A stretch of DNA of 64,000 nt from Eledone cirrhosa (Eukaryota). Below the pieces are notes generated by a model that was given only the letters and a program-made list of their open reading frames with translations, was not told where the DNA came from and did no database searches. This document shows, one piece after another, positions 4,330 through 57,690 of this stretch; within the stretch, counting starts at the first letter, position 1; each line of letters begins with the position of its first letter. Both the position numbers and the translations under genes were made by a program. The stretch is from positions 113,522,001-113,586,000 of the forward strand of contig OZ024741.1 in the NCBI GenBank assembly GCA_964016885.1, given 5' to 3'.

Positions 4330-4670
4330 AAGGCGCATGGCTTAGTGGTTAGAGCATTGGACTTGCAATCGAAAAGTTGTGAGTTCGATTCTCGGACTGG
4401 GTGATGCGTTGTGTTCTTGAGCAAGACACTTTATTTCACATTGCTCCAGTTTACTCAACTGTAGAAATGAGCTGCGACGTCACTGGTGTCAACCTGTATC
4501 GGCCATTGCCTTTCTCTTGAACAACATCGGTGGCGTGGAGATGGGAGGCTGGTATGCATGGGTGACTGCTGGTCTTCCACAAACAACCTTGCCTGGTCTT
4601 GTGCCTGGGGGGAAAACTTTCTAGGTGCAAATCCCATGGTCATTCGTGACCAAAGGGGGTCTTTACCCTT
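4330..4670 (+). mobile_element. tRNA-derived SINE (group 1, CORE-like central block)
   Basis: A box TGGCTTAGTGG; B box GAGTTCGATTC; then TTGTGTTCTTGAGCAAGACACTT. Relatives at 9770-10030(-), 10400-10640(-) and 1-140(-). Confidence 0.85.
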
Positions 4671-6420: not shown

Positions 6421-6628
6421 AAATTAGAAATAGAAGCTTTCCCCATATTTTTGACTAAAGAAATTTTAGCCTGATAGTGGGGTTTAGAACCCTAAGAGAA
6501 ATGGAAAGAGATGAGTATTGATGAACATCAATACTCATCTTTTTCCATTTCTTTGAGGGTTCTAAACCCCACTATCAGGCTAAAATTTCTCTAGTCAAAA
6601 ATACGGTGAAAGCTTCTATTTCTAATTT
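6421..6628. repeat. ~208-bp near-perfect palindrome
   Basis: Arms of ~103 bp around a 2-nt AA loop (GATGAGTATTGATG-AA-CATCAATACTCATC). Confidence 0.93.
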
Positions 6629-15594: not shown

Positions 15595-15876
15595 TAGAAA
15601 TGACTTCTACAGGACCAGAACTGCTTCACCATCACCATCATCATCATTTTACGTCTGCTTTTCCTTGCTTGATTTCATATATAGTAGTATAGGGGAGATA
15701 ACCAATTATCTATCTATATCACATTGTTTATAGATTCCAACTGATCAATAGGTGCTGATGACCAGAATGAATGAAATATGATGTTCATGACTACTACTAC
15801 TGCTACTACTACAACTACTATTACTACTACTACTTTTGTTGATATATTCTATAAATCTCTTTCTTTTTCATTGTAG

Positions 15877-15990
15877 TGGTTTGGAAATTTGGTCACTCTG
15901 AAATGGTGGGATGATATTTGGCTGAACGAGGGATTTGCTACATTTATGGGATGGATTGGAATGAAAGCAGTTGAAGAAGATTTTGACAGT
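15877..15990 (+). CDS. Internal exon of an M1-family zinc aminopeptidase (aminopeptidase N/A/ERAP-like)
   Basis: Polypyrimidine tract + TAG acceptor and GTAAGT donor; 114 nt, phase 0. Translates [38 protein letters not shown], the segment after HEXXH that holds the third Zn ligand (NEGFA). Confidence 0.96.
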
Positions 15991-16540
15991 GTAAGTATGT
16001 TGTTATTCTTACTAGTACATTACCCACGGATAAATAGTATTTATTTACATCATCAAATTTCAACAAAGCTATGTCTGTGGACTATATCACCGAGTGGTGA
16101 AGGAGTTAATTTAACAACCAGTTGGTCCTAGCTTCAGTCCCACTATGGAACAACTTGGGGAAGTTTCTTCTACAATAGTTTTGGCTTGATCAATGCAATG
16201 TGACAGGAATTTGGTAAATAGAACTGCAGAAGACTGTCATAAATGAGGTTGGTGTTAGGAAGAACATCCAGCTGTAAAAACACCGGCCAAATTTACTGTC
16301 CCGTCTGAGCAAAGTTTGGCATGGTCACTTCTGGCCAAACTTGTTTCTCAATGTGGAGGACAACCCATCTAATTTGTGCACGTCTGGAAAATGGATGTTA
16401 AACAGTGATGATGATAATGGTATATGGTGGCTGCAACTCGATTTGAGGTTGCTGGTTTAATCGCTGACCACTCAACCATGCACAGGTTGTACATATATAT
16501 GTATATATATATATATATACATACATATACATATATATAC

Positions 16541-24168: not shown

Positions 24169-24303
24169 GACCAATATAAAGTGCTTAGACAGTTGATAGG
24201 AGCTTTAAATATGGATTCATTTGAGACATCTCATCCAATTGAAAACAAAGTGAAGCACGTCAAAGATATTGATGTAGTATTTGATAGTATAACCTATAAT
24301 AAG
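24169..24303 (+). CDS. Next internal exon of the same M1 aminopeptidase
   Basis: TTTTGTACAG acceptor and GTAAGA donor; 135 nt, phase 0. Translates DQYKVLRQLIGALNMDSFETSHPIENKVKHVKDIDVVFDSITYNK, with the D...SHPI and FD.ItYnK catalytic-Tyr motifs. Confidence 0.95.
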
Positions 24304-31052: not shown

Positions 31053-33760
31053 ATCATCATCACCGTTTTACGTCCGTTCTTCCACGCTAGCATGGGTTAG
31101 ACGGGTTGTCCTGTTGTGGGCAGTGTCTGGTCGGCTGACCATGCCTTGCTCATACAGGAACTGATCTGGCTTGATTTCTACAGCTGGATGCCCTTCCTAA
31201 CACCAACATCATTTACAGTGAGTGCTGGGTGCTTTTTCGTGGCGCCTACACGTCCACTTTACAGTGTGGGCTGGGTGCTTTTTTGCCGTGGCACCTCCAC
31301 GACCACCTTGCGGTGGGGGGGGGGGGCATATTGTTTATATGCTTCAGCATGTACCCATGGGAGGTCGGGTACCCTGTATTACTGCGTGACGCCAGAAGTC
31401 ACGGTCGTGTGTCATTGACTTTGAGAGGTATAGTTGGGTAAGGTCGGCTTTTATCACCTCATCCCAAGTCATCTTGGGTCTCCCCACTCCGCAGTTTCCA
31501 TCAACTTCTAGTGCTCTGCACCTTTTTATGCAGCTGTCATCCTTCATACGCATCACATGTCCATACCAGCGTAACCGCCTCTCCTGCACGCAGCATTTGA
31601 TTCCTCTTATGCTCAGTCTCTCTCTCAATTCCTTTATGCTTTGTCGTTCACGTATATTACTGTTACACATCCATCGGAGCATGCAGGCTTCGTTTCTCTC
31701 TAATCTACGTAAGTCTTCCACCTTCAGCGCCCAGGTCTCACTACCATGCAACATCGCTGTTCTGATACACGCATCATACAGTCTGCCTTTCATTCTGAGG
31801 GAGAAGCCTTTTGCAGCTAGCAGTGGTAGTAGTTCCCTAAACTTCTTCCATCCCGTTCTTACCCTAGTTATTGTACTTTCTGAGCACCCACCTCCGTTGC
31901 TAATTCGGTCACCTAGGTAGCAGAAGCTGTCTACTGTTTCTACAGGGCCCTCCCAGAGATTGGTGGTACTTGTTTCCTGTGGCTGTTTGCTTGCTGTTTC
32001 AGCACAGCTGCTGCATGTGAATCCTACATTCTTAATTAAGCTTCCTGAGATCCCGCTACATCTCTTGTGTACCCATTGTTTGCATTTGGGGCAGAGAATG
32101 GAGTTCCTACCTACACCTTTCCTACATACTGAGCAAGGCCATTTCCCTGAGGGGATCTGGGTTCTGTTTTCTCGTCTACTTATAAGGACCTTAGTCTTTG
32201 TCATGTTGACTTTGAGGCCCTTTCTCTCTAGTCCCTGCTTCCAGGTTTGGAATTTATTCTCTAGTTCTACCATAGATTCAGCTATGAGTGCGAGGTCATC
32301 AGCATACAGGAGTTCCCATGGGCATCCGGTCTTAAACTCCTCCGTTATTGCCTGCAGGACTATGATGAACAGGAGAGGGCTAAGAACAGAGCCCTGGTGG
32401 ACCCCAACCTGTACGCTAAATTCCTCGCTATACTCATTGCCAATCCTAACTTTGCTGACTGCTCCCCTATACATGGCTTGTACCGCTTTCACAAGCCATT
32501 CATCTACTCCTAGTTTTCTAAGAGCCCACCAGATTACTGCACGTGGAACTCTGTCAAAGGCTTTCTCAAGGTCGACAAATGCCAAGTAGAGTGGCTTACT
32601 TTTAGCTAGGTACTTTTCCTGTAATTGCCTCACAAGGAAGAGGGCATCAGTGGTGCCTTTCCCTGGTACAAACCCAAATTGCATCTCGTCTATATTCACC
32701 CGGTCCCTAATCAGCTGTGCTATAACTCTTTCTGTTACTTTCATGACCTGGTCCATCAACTTTATACCTCTATAGTTTCCTCTATCTAGTGCATCGCCTT
32801 TACCTTTGTAGCAGTTGACAATGATGCTACTGCACCAATCTTTTGGTATGGCCCCCTCTAGTATTACCTGGTTAACGATACGTGTGGTTATAGTGTGACC
32901 TACAGACCCAGATGCCTTCAGCATCTCGGCAGCTATACCCGATGGACCGGTTGCCTTCCCTATCTTCATATCTCTGATTGCCTTACTTACTACGCTGCCG
33001 CTGACTTGTACTGCTGGTCCCTCTATAGGGTCTACGTGGGGTAGGGTCTCTTCTTCCCATGCATTCTCCTCATTTAGTAATCTATCATAATGACTCTTCC
33101 ATGCATCTTTCTTCTCAGCACTTGTGAGGGCAAGCTCACCTTTATCATTCCGGATACACTTCTCTCCAATGACATCACAACTATCTCTGACACACTGCCT
33201 CGCAATCTTGAATACCTCCTGTTTCTGGTCCTCACGTTGTAAAACATGCTTGAATTTTCTATCCTCTGCTTCCCTCCTAGCTAAGTATACTTGTCGCCTA
33301 GCTTCCCTCTTGGTCTCTATGTAATGTACCCTGCTCCCCCCGTTCTTCCATTCTTTCCATGCCTGTCTCTTGGCCTTGACTGCTTCATCTACCTTATTGT
33401 TCCACCACCAAGTCACTCTCCTCCTGCTTGAGGTCTTACTCCAGCCACAAACCTCATCCGTCGCCTCTAGTAAGTTATTTTTTAGGAACTCCCAGTTCTC
33501 TTCTACGTTAAATGTCTGTATCTGTTCTTCTTTACTGTCGTAGGCGTTGAGTAAAATATCTTTAAATCTGTTACTGGTTGAGGGGACTTTCAGCTTCCAG
33601 ATCTTTCTTCTCCAGGTTGGCCTCTGTTTCAGGGCTCGTCTAGTTCTGACCGTGAGGTCGCTGACAACTAAGCTATGTTGGGATGTACATTCCTCACTAG
33701 GGAAGGCTTTTGTGTTTACGACCGTCCATCTGTCACGTCCTCTGATGAGGATAAAATCGT
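31053..33760 (-). mobile_element. RTE-clade LINE (family A), 5'-truncated, with an intact RT region
   Basis: Uninterrupted 690-aa ORF 31344-33416 with NYRGIKL, FVDLEKAFDRV, GVHQGSVLSP, LLYADD and RRLRWYGHV motifs; 3' UTR ends in GGACGTAAAACG(GTGATGAT) tail. Confidence 0.95.
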
Positions 33761-33834
33761 TATTATTGATTTTTATTGATATATATATTGATATATTATT
33801 GATTTATATATTGATATATTATTGATTTTAATTG

Positions 33835-33902: not shown

Positions 33903-36900
33903 CTAAGGCGGGTAAAATTCCCGAGATCCATGGACGAGTTCTCTCCAGCGGTCTCTGTCCCTCATTATCGCTGCCATATCCTGCATCTCCAACAGACCAG
34001 TGTCTGTCCTTAGGGCATCAACATATGTTAACCTTGGTCTTCCTCTTCTAGTGTGTCCATGTAGGGGCTCCCAAAGGAGCACTGAGTGCAATGTCAACTC
34101 TGGATGTCGGTGAGCATGTCCAGCCAACCTCAGTCTCCTCTGTGTCACTTTTGAGCTGACTTTTGGGATGCTCCCATACAGCTCTGAGTTTTTCATCCTC
34201 AGTGTATACTGATTAATGTTCAGAGCCATCTTCAGCATTCTCATGTAGCACCTATCCACCATCTGAGTGAGTCTCTTGGTCAGTGTCCAAGTCTCAGACT
34301 CATACAGCAGCGCAGACTCCACTACAGCAATGAAGAGGCGGATTTTCAGGTCTCTACGAAGGTCCGACTTCCACACCGATCTCAAGCTGTGACACGCCGC
34401 CCAGGCCTTGCTCTTCCTCTCAACCACATCATCTTCCGTATTCCCAATCTTTGCTCCCAAATACAGGAAGTCCTCAACCAATTCCAGCGGCTACCAGATA
34501 TTTTGTTTTAGTCTCATTCATTTTCAGCCCCACACTCATCGACACAGTCTCAACCTCCCGCATCAAATCCTCTGCCTCCTTCACTGTATTTGTCACCAAA
34601 ACTATGTCGTCGGCAAATTCAGCATCCGATACCTTTTTCGCCCCAACTCTCCTGCTCTGAGCCGGTGCTACAGTAAAGCCAGAGTCCTGGTGTTTCTCCA
34701 GTACAAGGCGCATACAATAGTCCACTACGATGGTAAAAAGGTAGGGAGCCAATGTATCTCCCTGGAGCACTCCAGCCAGTATCTCAAAGAACTCTGTCAT
34801 CCCATCAGGTGTAATGACTTGGGCTTTGGTGTTGGTGTAGAGCAGTGATATCAGGTCCACTATCCTCTTGGGGATTCCATAAGCCTGTAAGATCTTCATC
34901 AGGCAGTAATGGTCCACAGAATCAAAGGCCTTCCTAAAGTCAATGAAAACCATGACCGCAGGAAGGCACTTTGCTCTAGCTCCCTCTAATATCCTCCTCA
35001 GCATCAGGATGTGACTGGTGGTTGATCTACCCTCTCTGAAGCCGTTCTGGTTGTCCCTGAGCTTCTTCTCCATCTCAGGCTGGATCCTGTTAAGAATCAT
35101 CCTGTTGAGTGTCTTTGCCACAAGTGACGTCAGTGAGATCCCCCGGTAGTTGTTGGTGTTAGAGAGATCTCCCTTCTTTGGCACTGGGACGATGTTACTG
35201 ATCCTCCACTGATTCGGGGCAACTCCTTTCTCCAGTGCCCCGTTACAGAACCCCAGGATGATATCATCAAAATCACACCTCTTCATCACCTCTGATGCCA
35301 CTCCATCTTCTCCATGAGCCTTGCCCTCCTTGATCTTCTTCTTGGCTCTCTGAAGCTCCTCTCTGGTGAAGGGCTCTGTCTCAACATCCAGTTCCTCAAA
35401 CAGCCGCCTGATCTCCCCAGTGCTCTGGGCTGTGGAGGGTGGCTCTCCTAGTAGGGTCCTAAAATGGTCTAGCCATTTCCTCTTCCTATCCTCGGACCCC
35501 GTTCCCTGGATCTGACTCAAACACCTTTTCTTCCTCCCTGTGATCTCGTTGATGATCATCCAGCTCTCCTTACATCCAGATCTGTCAACCGCTCTCTCCA
35601 CACTTCTGATCTTCTCTATCAGTGCCTCCTCTCTGACCTCAGTGTAAGCGGTACAAAGCTCTTCCCTCATCACCTCCACAGTCTCCATCCTCTCCTCCGT
35701 AGGATCAGCATAGAATTGGTCCCTGGCAGCTTTCAGGTGTTCTCTGGCTGCACACACTTTTGGGTTTGCAGAGCTGACATGCTTCCCTTTGTTCTTTTTC
35801 CTCGGCACCAGGGTTTCACTTGCTTTCGCCACTGCATTGGTGAAGTGCCCGTACCTCCTCGTCACACTCTCCTCAGTCCATCCAATCTCTCTCTCCTCTG
35901 ACTCTCCACACAGAGCACTAAACCTGTTTCTCACTTCCACTGTGAACCTCTCCTGTAGCTTATCATCTTCCTTGAAAGCTCCCCAGTCATAGATTGTTCT
36001 CCGGGGCTGAGCCTTGCTCTTTCTTAAGCTCACGCGGACCTCACTCATAACAAGCCGGTGGTCACTACTCAGTGTACTGAAATAGCTGTATGGTTCCGTG
36101 TTCAGAACACTATTCCGCCACTTTTTCCTCACCAGAATGAAATCAATCTGGGACTTGGACAGGTGCATATCTGAGATGTAGGTCCACATCTTCCCCAGAT
36201 TCTTCCTAAACCTTAGGTTGGTCGCCATCAAGTTCGCCTCCAGCAGGGTGCCTCTCAGTAGTCTTCCATTTCGGTTGGTGTTGTTATGGAAGTACCAGCA
36301 AGGATCTTCACTGCCCTCCTTACTCAGATGTGCATTGAAGTCCCCCAAAACAAGCAGGATATTGTGTGCCTGAGTGGTGTTGACAGCTCTACACACCTCC
36401 TCATGGAACTCCTCGGCATTCACATCACTGTCCCCCTCGGTTGGACTATAGGCTGAGATGACTGTCAGTCTTGGGTTTCCATTGAAGGTCACCCTCAACA
36501 CTCGCGGGGAGATAGGCATTATTTCCCTCACCAACAGATTGGTTTTTGCACTGAACACAAAACCCACTCCTCCTACTGCAGCATTTGTTGTGTTCTTCAC
36601 TGCCGATGTAGTGATGAGCTGGCTCTTCCTCCCGATCATCACACTCCTCACGGGCTCATCATGTAGAATCCTGTGTTCTTGGATCGCAAGTATCTGTATA
36701 CCACTCTCCTCGAACAGATGTCCCAACTCCTCTCTCTTCTCCAGCGTTCGAATAGTCCTCACATTCAAAGTGCCCATTTTGATGGCTCTTCTGCAGGACA
36801 AAACAGCATTCTTTATATTTGTCTCAGAGACAGCTGATCCATCATCCACTGGCCCTCTCTGTGGCTCTAAGCCAGCAGAGTCATAACGACCAGGCTGCTC

Positions 36901-37162
36901 CTTGACAGTGTAATTAGAGGCTCTAACCCTAGTGCTGTTAGATCGACTCTCCATATTTCTTTTCAATGGCTGACAATACCTTACCGGCGCCACTCGAATA
37001 AGGTAGTTATTTAACCCATAAATGGAGCCCTAACAGGTACTACCACCCCGGGCCAGGGCAGACCTGGGAGTCATGACAACTAAGGGGCAACTCCACATTC
37101 CCCACATCTCCTGAACTCCCGAACTGGAGCCTTGCCACTGGATGTAGTTTAATGTCATACCC

Positions 37163-48922: not shown

Positions 48923-49795
48923 TGGAAGAAGTTCAGGGAGCTACTGCCACTGCTAGCTGCAAAAGGCTTTTCCCTCAAAATGAAAGGCAGACTGTATGAT
49001 GCATGTATATGAACAGCAATGTTACATGGTAGTGAGACCTGGGCGCTGAAGGTGGAAGACTTACATAGATTAGAAAGAAACGAAGCCTGCATGCTCCGAT
49101 GGATGTGTAATAGTAATAAACGCGAATGGCAAAGCCTAAATGAATTGAGAGAGAGACTGAACATAAGAGGAATCAAATGATGTGTGCAGGAGAGGCGGTT
49201 GCGTTGGTATGGACATGTGATGCGTATGAAGGATGACAGCTGCATAAAAAGGTGCAGAGCACTAGAAGTCAATGGAAACCGCGGAGTGGGAGACCTAATA
49301 AGAACTGGGATGAGGTGATAAAAGCCGACCTTACCCAATTACACCTCTCAAAGGCGATGACACACGACTGTCACCTCTGGCGTCACGCAGTAATACAGAG
49401 TACCCGACCTACCACAGGTACAAGCCGAAGCTGAAGCATATAGACAATATGCCCCCACACCCTCCCACTGCAAAGTGGTCGTGGGGGTGCTACAGCAAAA
49501 AAGCACTCAGCACTCACTGTAAATGAGGTTGGTGTTAGGAAGGGCATCCAGCTGTAGAAATCAAGCCAGAATCAGTTCCTGTATGAGCAAGTCAAGGCCG
49601 ACCAGACACTGCCCACAACAGGACAACCCGTCTAACCCATGCTAGTGGAGGTGTCACGGAAAAAAGCACCCAGCCCTCACTCTAAATGAGGTTGGTGTTA
49701 GGAAGGGCATCCAGCTGTAGAAATCAAGCCAGAATCAGTTCCATCCCACCCTTGCAAGCAGGGAAAAGCAGACGTAAAATGATGATGATGATGAT
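48923..49795 (+). mobile_element. RTE family A 3' end with a duplicated 3' UTR segment
   Basis: Begins at WKKFRELLPLLAAK-coding DNA; the 3' UTR block AATGAGGTTGGTGTTAGGAAGGGCATCCAGC occurs twice; (ATG)n tail. Confidence 0.9.
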
Positions 49796-49859
49796 TATAT
49801 ATATATATATATCATATACGATATTAAATAAATGGAAACTATATTTATAAAACCATATT

Positions 49860-49924
49860 TATTTCATTATACATATTTCAGCGATACCAAATTAAAATAT
49901 GGTATGCCTTCATCAGACAAAATA
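49860..49924 (-). ncRNA. Mirror copy of the hammerhead motif
   Basis: Reverse complement of 50078-50142 with one extra stem II mismatch (TGGTATCGCT). Confidence 0.6.
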
Positions 49925-50077
49925 CAATATATAAACAGTTTTATAAATAATTTTGACGTACCCTATTAGATGCAACCATTATTTTTGGAAGCTATCCAGA
50001 CAGCTTCCCAAAATAATGGTTGCATCTAATAGGGTACGTCAAAATTATTTATAAAACTGTTTATATATGTTTATATG

Positions 50078-50142
50078 TATTTTGTCTGATGAAGGCATAC
50101 CATATTTTAATTTGGTATCCCTGAAATATGTATAATGAAATA
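50078..50142 (+). ncRNA. Minimal type I hammerhead ribozyme motif
   Basis: Stem I TATTTTGT/ATGAAATA (8 bp, 2 GU); CTGATGA 50086-92; stem II AGGCATACCA/TGGTATCCCT (9 of 10 pair); GAAA 50123-26; short stem III; UA cleavage site at 50133-34. Confidence 0.7.
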
Positions 50143-50279
50143 AATATGGTTTTATAAATATAGTTTCCATTTATTTAATATCGTATATCTACTCCAAAAA
50201 CTTGTCGAGTGCTTTATATCAGTTATAAAATATTTAATTGTTGTATCCCAACAATTTTAAATTGAACTTTTGCATATAT

Positions 50280-50343
<64 letters not shown>

Positions 50344-51681
50344 TCACCATCATCATCATCATCAACACCATTTAATGTCTATTTTTTCATGCTTGCATGG
50401 GTTAGATGGGTCACCCACATCATGAGACAAGTCTGGCATACATATAAATATTGGATATGTGTATAGATATATGTATATGTTTTTATATGTATATGTGTGT
50501 GAACATGTAAATATCAGTGCAAGGTACGGCATGGTCAATTCTGGCAAGACTTGTCTCCCGACGTGGGATGACCTGTCTACCCATGCAAGCATGGAAAAAT
50601 GGATACTAAATGGTCATACACACACATACACACACACACATATGTGTGTGTGTATGTATGTATACATATCACCATCATCGTTTTATGTCCACTTTCCAAA
50701 CTGGCATGGGTTGGATGGGATGTCAAAATCCATAACTAGATGTGTCGAAGCTGCCTCATCTTGATCCTTACAGTCCATATTTTGACATAGTTTCCACAGT
50801 TGGATGCTCTTCCTTATGCCAAGCACCTTATAGACTGGACTTTAGAATCTTATCATGGCACCAATACTAACACATCTATAGGTCTATCATTTCTGTTATC
50901 AGCATATGGGAGTTCTCATAGACAACCAGTTTGAAATTCCTCTGATGTAGCCTGACAGATCATATAAACATGATGATGATATAAAAGTGTAAACAGACAG
51001 ATAAATATATTTTATAAAATTTATATTTGTTTGTTTGTATAAATATTTGACTTAGAACTGCATTACTTAAAGTTTCACAATAGTGAGAAAATCATTGGCT
51101 GTATCTTTCATTTGAAATATAGTAATGAAAGGGTTAAACATTTAGCCATGTTTGTGTGTTGTGTATATGAAAACAAATTACAATTTTGTAACAAACAAGA
51201 CTTCATAAAACAGAATTATTTGTAACAGTTATCACTGCTTTGTAATTGTCTTTTATATTCTGTTTTCTTAATTTATATGCTTTTTGCTAAAGTTTGGACT
51301 TACAGACCTCAAACACATGAAATACATGTTTCTAAAACTTTACTTTCTTTCACTGTGTAGTTTTTTGATCCTTTGCCATATTTGGCTATTTTCTGGCAAA
51401 AGAACTTCCTGTGTTCTTAGAAATGTTTTTGCCAGCCAGTATGTCTCTTTGTATTCCTGACCAATTCTAAATCAGCATCTTTCAAGTAATGTTATGAGAA
51501 GGTTCTTGAAATCTATATCCTAGCCAGAATGTCTTTGTTATAGTCTAATAAACAGTTCTCAGTTTTGTTATTTCTCTCTCTTTATGTAATTCCACAAGGT
51601 AAGTTACATTGAGGTTATTTCAACCAGTATAGTTTAAAGATAATTCAGAGTGTTCAATCAAATAACATATCTTAACTTTAA

Positions 51682-56621: not shown

Positions 56622-57690
56622 TCAGAAATGACTGGATTTCCTGGATTTGCGCTTGTAGTCCAGGTCGCATTCCCGCACTAGCCCCCAGATATAGTCCCCC
56701 ATCATTTTTTCATTGTAGTGGCCCTGGTACCTCCGCTCTATCTCTTTCACATCTTGGTGGAATCGTTCGCCTTGTTCTTCTGAGTAGGCGCCTATATTAT
56801 CCTTGAATTTTTCCAGGTGAGAGTCCAGCATATGGAGTTTAAGCGACATCCTGCATCCCATGGCGCCAAAAGCCTTTATCAGATCCTGCACCAGTTGCTG
56901 GTAGTTTTCAGCTCTGTAGTTGCCCAGGAAGCCCTTAACAACTGCCTTGAAACAGTTCCATGCTGTTCTCTCAATCCTATTGAGCTTATTGGAGAGCTCG
57001 GTAACTCAAACACCTTCTTTATCTGAGGTCCAACAAAAATTCCACCTTTGATTTTGGCCTCAGATAACTTGGGGAAGAACTCAAGAAGGTACTTAAAAGC
57101 GGCTGATTCTTGGTTGAGAGCCTTCACAAACTGCTTCATCAACCCCAACTTAGTGTGCAGTGGCGGCATGAGCACAATCCTGGGATCAACCAGTGGCTCC
57201 CACATGACGTTCCAGGTCCCAACTACAAATTCTGTTCACTGCTCCCAGTTCTTTCTTTTCTAGTGGTCAGAGGTGGCTCTGCTGTCCCAAAGGCAGAGGA
57301 AGCATTGGAATTTGATAAAGCCTCCTTGGAGTCCAAGCAGGAAAGCCACCATCTTGAAGTCTCCAATGATTTCCCAATTGTACTGGTTGTATTGCAGAGC
57401 TTCCAAGAGGACTTTTACACTGTAGTAATCTTCCTTCAGGCAGACTGAATGTGCTAGGGGCAGTGTCGGGAACTTGTTTCCATTGTGGAGGAGCTGTCTA
57501 TAAATAGCCGCCACTCCTTGGGCACAAACGGCACCCCAATAACGTCAAAAAGTCCAGGCGCGTCATGGCAGAAGCAGAGGCCATCCCTAAGAGTGTAAAA
57601 GCCTGAGAAAGGTTTGTGTTGACTTCTCTGACTTGTCACCTACACTTCCTCCTTGACCAAGTTCCACTGCTTCATCCTGGAGACGAATGC
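56622..57690 (-). pseudogene. Decayed DNA-transposon transposase, Chapaev/CMC-like
   Basis: Frameshifted pieces: WRLFIDSS, IIGDFKMVAFLLGLQGGFIKFQCFLCLWDSR, PPLHTKLGLMKQFVKAL, MSLKLHMLDSHL and EEQGERFHQD. Superfamily assigned from memory of these motifs. Confidence 0.7.

What the first reader, a model, noticed from the sequence alone, without database searches (positions are those of the whole stretch)
49814..50188. Long intronic hairpin carrying a core-intact hammerhead ribozyme on each arm
Seen: ~185-bp inverted arms, each with stem I-CTGATGA-stem II-GAAA-very short stem III-UA-stem I' (+ copy 50078-50142, - copy 49860-49924). Known: Penelope-like retroelements carry minimal type I hammerheads in their terminal repeats, often leave inverted repeats, and such short-stem-III hammerheads tend to work as dimers. 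Inference: either strand's transcript contains one ribozyme plus its own antisense. In the aminopeptidase pre-mRNA the antisense arm is made first and could lock the ribozyme in long dsRNA, giving a self-silenced cleavage site and a likely ADAR/Dicer substrate.
Basis: partly seen in the sequence, partly recalled or inferred. Interest (0 to 1): 0.75.

Follow-up and report, generated by a model that had tools for sequence, protein, structure and literature searches.

The report
Penelope retroelement fold-back carrying hammerheads
This intronic hairpin is a broken, mirror-image copy of the end of a very abundant jumping gene whose tail carries a predicted self-cutting RNA, and the genome likely holds thousands of such hairpins, so it is probably an ordinary by-product of jumping rather than a control switch for the host gene.

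Summary
The hairpin and both hammerhead cores are real. The minus copy has lost one conserved stem II pair. The element is larger than reported (49814-50273): the right arm runs 85 nt further, and a 9-14 bp target duplication in (TA)n flanks it. It is the truncated 3' end (pLTR) of a Hydra-clade Penelope-like retroelement; copies with ~740-aa RT plus GIY-YIG frames lie elsewhere. A 22-mer of the ribozyme matches 25,543 times, and 10 tails-out pairs within 700 bp occur among the first 100 matches. In 74 of 81 inverted pairs, one arm ends short and the other carries the tail. Stem II covaries across subfamilies, so the ribozyme was likely selected in the element. The site lies in a ~52-kb intron of a plus-strand M1 aminopeptidase gene, where the sense ribozyme is predicted to be locked in dsRNA. 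Nothing found marks this copy as co-opted. Inverted pLTRs, one-sided tails and opposite-strand hammerhead pairs are published. This scan noted the same two-ended pattern in other repeat families of this genome. Family-level extras: a large Hydra burst, a 5'-end hot spot, an invariant C·C in stem II. Cleavage and editing are untested.

The parts
49805..49813 (.). Left copy of the target-site duplication (ATATATATC, extendable to 14 bp) in a (TA)n tract
   Evidence: the single C interruption of the TA tract appears on both sides
49814..49993 (-). Inverted, 5'-truncated pLTR copy ending at the family's short 3' end (no tail); 1 substitution against natural copy L020
49860..49924 (-). Type I hammerhead motif, core intact, one stem II pair broken by C49882; antisense to the host pre-mRNA
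49992..50001 (+). Apex: 2-nt (CT) overlap of the two arms and 8-nt loop, at the family's 5'-end hot spot (TCACT, Inr-like)
   Evidence: same junction at L025 with unrelated flanks
49992..50188 (+). Forward 5'-truncated pLTR copy; 1 substitution and a 7-nt duplication against L020
50078..50142 (+). Type I hammerhead motif identical to the commonest variant sampled; predicted cut after A50134; sense in the pre-mRNA
50189..50273 (+). 85-nt Penelope tail, on this arm only; in long copies it is the start of the 5' leader before the ORF; 2 substitutions against L020
50274..50282 (.). Right copy of the target-site duplication
15874..16002 (+). Host M1 aminopeptidase exon match (Pfam positions 78-120)
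24169..24303 (+). Host M1 aminopeptidase exon (Pfam 121-161), last one found before the hairpin; next match lies 12.7 kb past the window end

Best explanation
The hairpin is a young, 5'-truncated insertion of a Hydra-clade Penelope-like retroelement, made of two back-to-back copies of its hammerhead-bearing end, and it likely arose when the element's enzyme cut both strands of a (TA)n tract and copied its RNA from each cut end. Shown: family membership, copy number, target duplication, the two fixed 3' ends 85 nt apart with one used per arm, the 5'-end hot spot at the apex, stem II covariation, and the intronic position. Inferred: each DNA end primed at a different start site, copying ran to about the RNA 5' end (a TCACT start in the pLTR) on uncut RNA, and the two cDNAs joined through the 2-nt CT overlap. 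The ribozyme likely serves the element's own cycle as a dimeric or protein-assisted motif. In the aminopeptidase pre-mRNA it is predicted to be held in about 180 bp of dsRNA and to be a near-neutral passenger that may be edited like other repeat hairpins.
For: Near-identical copies: 23 of 29 top hits share one 182-mer. 25,543 matches to the ribozyme 22-mer and 2,819 to a downstream 32-mer. The arm lies about 1.35-1.6 kb downstream of RT/GIY-YIG frames on the same strand in 13 of 14 fetched long loci, not in L086. Hydra motifs RWR, DKT, CxCX5C, CxxC, CxH and no CCHH. Among the first 100 matches: 10 tails-out pairs within 700 bp, 0 tails-in. 74 of 81 inverted pairs have one short and one tailed arm. 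In L014 and L089 neither arm contains the other, which simple snap-back cannot give. 7 of 30 copies chosen on the 3' end start at 0 to +2 of the ACT site and 0 of 30 within 9 nt of the cut site. Six stem II pairs change on both sides. N7 takes all four bases while CTGANGA is kept in 25 of 27 copies. PMC11167929 shows both-strand cutting and extension, two start sites defining the tail, and uncut RNA as template for another Penelope element.
Against: No cleavage, expression or editing data for this locus or family. Rfam hammerhead models do not match. The monomer hammerhead fold (-5.5 to -8.4) is less stable than an alternative fold (-10.2 kcal/mol). Stems I and III show no two-sided change. 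The apex alone is equally well explained by snap-back priming. Seven of 81 pairs break the one-tail rule, and one arm of most pairs was fixed by how loci were chosen. Clade placement rests on motifs, not a tree. Pfam found no RT or GIY-YIG family in two long frames.
Confidence: 0.88

Rival explanations
1. Host-co-opted switch: the antisense arm silences an active intronic ribozyme, and unwinding or editing releases cleavage to tune aminopeptidase output.
For: The sense copy is intact and the antisense arm comes first in the pre-mRNA. The damaged copy is the one the host strand does not read as a ribozyme.
Against: The insertion is young (4 substitutions and one 7-nt duplication over both arms against L020), and about 2,500 similar pairs are extrapolated genome-wide. 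Only one sense copy was found in the window, so no nearby dimer partner. Such motifs are reported inactive alone (PMC4209133, PMC11167929).
Confidence: 0.03
2. Same element, but the inversion came from snap-back: one cDNA reached the RNA 5' end, folded on its terminal imperfect palindrome and was copied back.
For: The apex is exactly the product of a 2-4 bp fold-back with an 8-nt loop, the short arm is contained in the tailed arm, and L025 has the same junction. PMC3846280 reads palindromic junctions as self-priming.
Against: It does not by itself explain why the second arm stops at the fixed short end in most pairs, nor insertions where each arm has sequence the other lacks (L014, L089).
Confidence: 0.25
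3. Assembly or library fold-back artefact.
For: Near-perfect palindrome with a tiny loop; no read set spanning the locus was available.
Against: The arms differ from each other, end at two different family-specific sites, and are flanked by a target duplication. The same layout recurs at dozens of loci.
Confidence: 0.02
4. A non-autonomous unit (MITE or retrozyme) that moves as a whole hairpin.
For: Short tails-out hairpins are common, and one junction recurs at two loci.
Against: Junctions and arm lengths differ from locus to locus, arms continue into 3' UTR and ORF in longer copies, and no tandem array of short units is present here.
Confidence: 0.04

Closest known systems
Hydra clade of Penelope-like elements (Craig et al. 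2021, PMC8557442; passages, section 11, supplement searches and part 2 of 59 read)
   Same: C-terminal GIY-YIG without CCHH, RWK/RWR, DKT, CxCX5C linker, CxxC and CxH, (TA)n targets, 3' hammerhead. Penelope-13_HM is listed with a 5'-truncated inverted copy and a hammerhead on each strand. Hydra-1_Obim is a cephalopod member.
   Different: About 3.9 kb with a ~1.5-kb 3' region (described members generally under 3 kb); 85-nt tail (30-40 bp described for PLEs); at least 25,543 ribozyme copies; stem III begins A-U-A whereas 26 of 26 listed Hydra rows begin AC; invariant C·C in stem II.
Metazoan PLE minimal hammerheads (Cervera and de la Pena 2014, PMC4209133; parts 1-2 of 4 read)
   Same: Type I, long stem II, short palindromic stem III, located in pLTRs. 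The paper already reports pairs 100-700 bp apart on opposite strands.
   Different: A10.1-U11.1 rather than the conserved G-C with a bulged base; 8-bp stem I; 3-bp stem III rather than none.
Adineta vaga Penelope insertions (Arkhipova et al. 2013, PMC3846280; passages read)
   Same: Inverted pLTR, tail on one inverted pLTR, 8-10 bp target duplications, palindromic junctions, TCACT Inr-like motif in the pLTR.
   Different: Different clade and far lower copy number.
Poseidon PAc of Anolis (Frangieh et al. 2024, PMC11167929; parts 1-2 of 4 read)
   Same: Two RT start sites bounding the tail, both strands cut and extended, no RNA ends found at the ribozyme site.
   Different: Their ribozyme overlaps the ORF start and priming lacks homology to the target. 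Here the ribozyme ends about 180 nt before the ORF and both 3' ends finish in TATAT matching the TA target.
Non-LTR retrozymes (PMC7229834, passages; bioRxiv 10.64898/2026.07.22.740005, part 1 of 5)
   Same: Non-coding, type I hammerhead, Penelope-related.
   Different: Retrozymes are head-to-tail arrays; this is a tails-out pair cut from an autonomous element.

Membership tests
Penelope-like element (EN+) | Single ORF with RT and GIY-YIG endonuclease linked to the repeat | tested here: met
   740-750 aa frames with YRDD and VVY..YVG motifs upstream of the arm; domains read by eye and from the paper's motifs, Pfam gave no match
Penelope-like element (EN+) | pLTRs in direct and inverted arrangement, tail at one end | tested here: met
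   L085, L092 pLTR-ORF-pLTR; 74 of 81 inverted pairs one-tailed
Hydra clade | RWK-type motif and DKG changed to DKT | tested here: met
   IRWRAF and KSDKTNN; RWR also in Hydra-1_Crog
Hydra clade | CxCX5C linker; CCHH absent; CxxC and CxH in the endonuclease | tested here: met
   CNCRNKSNC, CDLC, CRH; one Cys between VVY and YVG
Hydra clade | Insertion in (TA)n | tested here: met
   30 of 30 short ends run into TA-rich tracts (partly favoured by the pattern's last bases); window flanks
Hydra clade | Generally under 3 kb (descriptive, not diagnostic) | tested here: not met
   about 3.9 kb unit in L085
Hydra clade | Phylogenetic placement of the RT with Hydra references | not tested
   reference proteins were seen only in part in the supplement; no tree built
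Type I hammerhead ribozyme | CUGANGA, GAAA and NUH core | tested here: met
   AUA triplet
Type I hammerhead ribozyme | Three stems supported by covariation | tested here: inconclusive
   stem II: 6 of 9 pairs change on both sides; stem I: 2 one-sided changes only; stem III: none (31 hand-picked of 87 variants)
Type I hammerhead ribozyme | Match to Rfam hammerhead models | tested here: not met
Type I hammerhead ribozyme | Self-cleavage | not testable with these tools
   no RNA run or assay available
Non-LTR retrozyme | Head-to-tail tandem units each with a hammerhead | tested here: not met
   one plus and one minus copy only

The most novel reading that the evidence does not exclude
A Hydra-clade Penelope element, so far described from few families, has seeded over 25,000 ribozymes and thousands of ready-made dsRNA hairpins in one genome. 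Its hammerhead is a distinct variant (invariant C·C in stem II, U15.2-A16.2) switched on by the element's own protein, and every two-armed insertion records a dimeric enzyme priming both DNA ends at two fixed RNA sites. That would make the family a large natural data set for the unsolved Penelope integration step and a major ADAR substrate class.
Probability: 0.35. Interest if true: 0.5.

Novelty: new member of a known kind. Interest (0 to 1): 0.25.

Why it matters
The locus itself matters little: it is one of many retroelement remnants in a long intron. The family is more useful. It shows a Hydra-clade element at very high copy number, gives counts (one tail per inverted pair, a 5'-end hot spot, no ends at the cut site) that fit the in vitro Penelope mechanism of PMC11167929, and offers a covarying hammerhead variant for testing protein-assisted cleavage.

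Tried and rejected
Rfam scans found no hammerhead; miRNA hits over the hairpin are below gathering scores. The look-up of sequencing runs: no RNA holder listed. Contigs of runs X1-X4 show the family is abundant there, but no piece spans the locus, so they do not test the inversion. A homolog search with the 45-aa exon found nothing; Pfam-based genome searches placed the exons instead. One search used a structure string off by one column and is void; one search is the corrected count. I looked for copies whose 5' end falls at the cut site as a footprint of cleavage: 0 of 30, nearest at +126 and +149 against +137/139; 16 of those 30 run far upstream and their exact ends were not resolved. I looked for A-to-G editing scars in this copy: none of its 4 substitutions is A>G. 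The first impression of a hot spot was biased by the query start, so it was retested on copies chosen by the 3' end only. No earlier scan note lay near the locus or matched its sequence. Five paper searches showed no description of this family; Repbase and Dfam could not be searched, so it may be catalogued there.

Full report
Observation. The window holds inverted arms at 49814-49996 and 49999-50188, 97-99% complementary, predicted to fold into one hairpin with an 8-nt loop. Each arm carries stem I, CTGATGA, stem II, GAA, a 3-bp stem III with a 2-nt loop, A, and stem I', at the coordinates given. The cores are intact. The minus copy has a private change at 49882 that breaks a stem II pair kept in all 31 aligned variants. 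Rfam's hammerhead models do not match. The element is larger than reported: the right arm continues 85 nt to 50273, and ATATATATC is duplicated on both sides within a (TA)n tract.

What it is. The arm belongs to a large repeat family. A 22-base pattern over stem I, core and stem II matches 25,543 times (control 0), a downstream 32-mer 2,819 times, and 23 of the 29 best other hits are identical over 182 nt. Following the family upstream led to a reading frame with at least 150 close genomic matches. In 13 of 14 long loci fetched, the arm lies about 1.35-1.6 kb downstream of such a frame on the same strand; several also have a direct pLTR before the frame or an inverted copy. The ~740-aa protein has RWR, DKT, YRDD, CNCRNKSNC, VVY..YVG, CDLC and CRH and lacks CCHH. 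These are the features listed for the Hydra clade (PMC8557442, section 11). Nine database relatives at 32-38% identity were found, one named from Argonauta. Pfam did not recognise the domains, and no tree was built. The host is probably a cephalopod; this is inferred and not established here.

How common the hairpin is. Among the first 100 pattern matches (first 27 Mb of C1) there are 10 tails-out pairs within 700 bp and no tails-in pair, which extrapolates to about 2,500. Across all 184 loci held, 81 tails-out pairs were parsed: 74 have one short and one tailed arm, 5 two tails (4 are internal pLTRs of long copies), 1 two short, 1 unclear. L133 and L157 are one locus counted twice, and one arm of most pairs was fixed by the search. 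The window copy follows the rule.

How it likely formed. The short end and the tail end both finish in TATAT, matching the target. In L014 and L089 each arm holds sequence the other lacks, which points to two priming events. This fits in vitro work on another Penelope protein, which cuts and extends both strands and starts at two sites bounding the tail (PMC11167929). Of 30 copies chosen only by a 3' 32-mer, 7 begin within 2 nt of the A of a conserved TCACT, 1 at -7, 6 between +44 and +149, and 16 run further upstream. The window's apex sits on that hot spot. PMC3846280 notes the same TCACT as Inr-like in rotifer pLTRs, so I infer it is the RNA 5' end. None of the 30 begins at the cut site, consistent with uncut RNA as template. 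Snap-back priming explains the apex equally well and remains a rival.

Is the ribozyme real? In 31 variants picked by hand from 87 (singletons with core changes left out), 95% of cells pair. Six stem II pairs change on both sides (40 cells against 14 in shuffles; 0 of 500 shuffles reach that, though shuffles ignore relatedness). Stem I has two one-sided changes and stem III none. Parts of stems I and III and the 5' C of the C·C were fixed by the selecting expression; the 3' C was free and is C in 31 of 31. In copies chosen outside the motif, 25 of 27 parsed keep CTGANGA while N is A, G, T or C (13, 9, 4, 1). This indicates selection on the ribozyme in active lineages. Stem III is self-complementary (duplex -2.2 to -3.2 kcal/mol), and the monomer fold is not the lowest-energy one. 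Related motifs did not cut as monomers (PMC4209133) or without protein (PMC11167929).

Host context. Peptidase_M1 matches run in order on the plus strand: before the window, at 15874-16002, at 24169-24303, and 12.7 kb past the window end, with an ERAP1_C match about 260 kb beyond the hairpin. The hairpin therefore lies in an intron of about 52 kb, assuming no missed exon, and the antisense arm is transcribed first. In the folded region the ribozyme's stem II pair has probability about 3e-20. The lock is a fair prediction, but it follows from geometry shared by thousands of copies. Editing of repeats in introns and UTRs is widespread in squid (PMC9068888, passages), so editing here would be expected and unremarkable. 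This copy shows no A>G change.

Known and new. Opposite-strand hammerhead pairs 100-700 bp apart (PMC4209133), a Hydra element with an inverted copy and a hammerhead on each strand (PMC8557442 supplement), and one-sided tails with target duplications (PMC3846280) are published. Earlier notes of this scan describe two fixed outer ends in other repeat families and edited Penelope hairpins in this genome; they are unchecked leads. Not found in five searches: this family, its copy number, its 85-nt tail and its C·C variant. Most of the PMC8557442 supplement was not read, and bioRxiv supplements were not opened.

Verdict. Real, well explained, and a new member of a known kind. Interest 0.25.

Noticed in passing
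window 49741-49798 and 50352-50409: Older repeat tails in inverted orientation (79% complementary) flank the TA tract and could extend the dsRNA; the insertion landed between them.
   Followed up: no
L025:1313-1768: Independent insertion with the same apex junction as the window copy but unrelated flanks.
   Followed up: partly
L006:2597-2664 and L149:2159-2227 (minus): More divergent sister hammerhead with compensatory stem II changes that keeps the C·C mismatch.
   Followed up: partly
L015, L029 apex regions: Short tandem repeats of the arm's first bases at the junction, suggesting repeated template jumps at the RNA 5' end.
   Followed up: no
L086:3175-5400 (+): Asparagine-rich stretch between RT thumb and linker, absent from most database relatives; recalls the N-rich inserts described in PMC3846280.
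   Followed up: no
window 34477-37029 and 31347-33803 (minus): Long LINE-like frames (851 and 819 aa) in the same intron; class judged by eye only.
   Followed up: no
window 56625-57544 (minus): Fragmented transposase-like frames; not classified.
   Followed up: no
window 6466-6583: A second, unrelated near-perfect hairpin (below-threshold miRNA-family hits); part of its arm recurs in L014, so it is probably a repeat.
   Followed up: no
window 4336-4399 (+): tRNA-like match (33.7 bits), possibly a SINE head.
   Followed up: no
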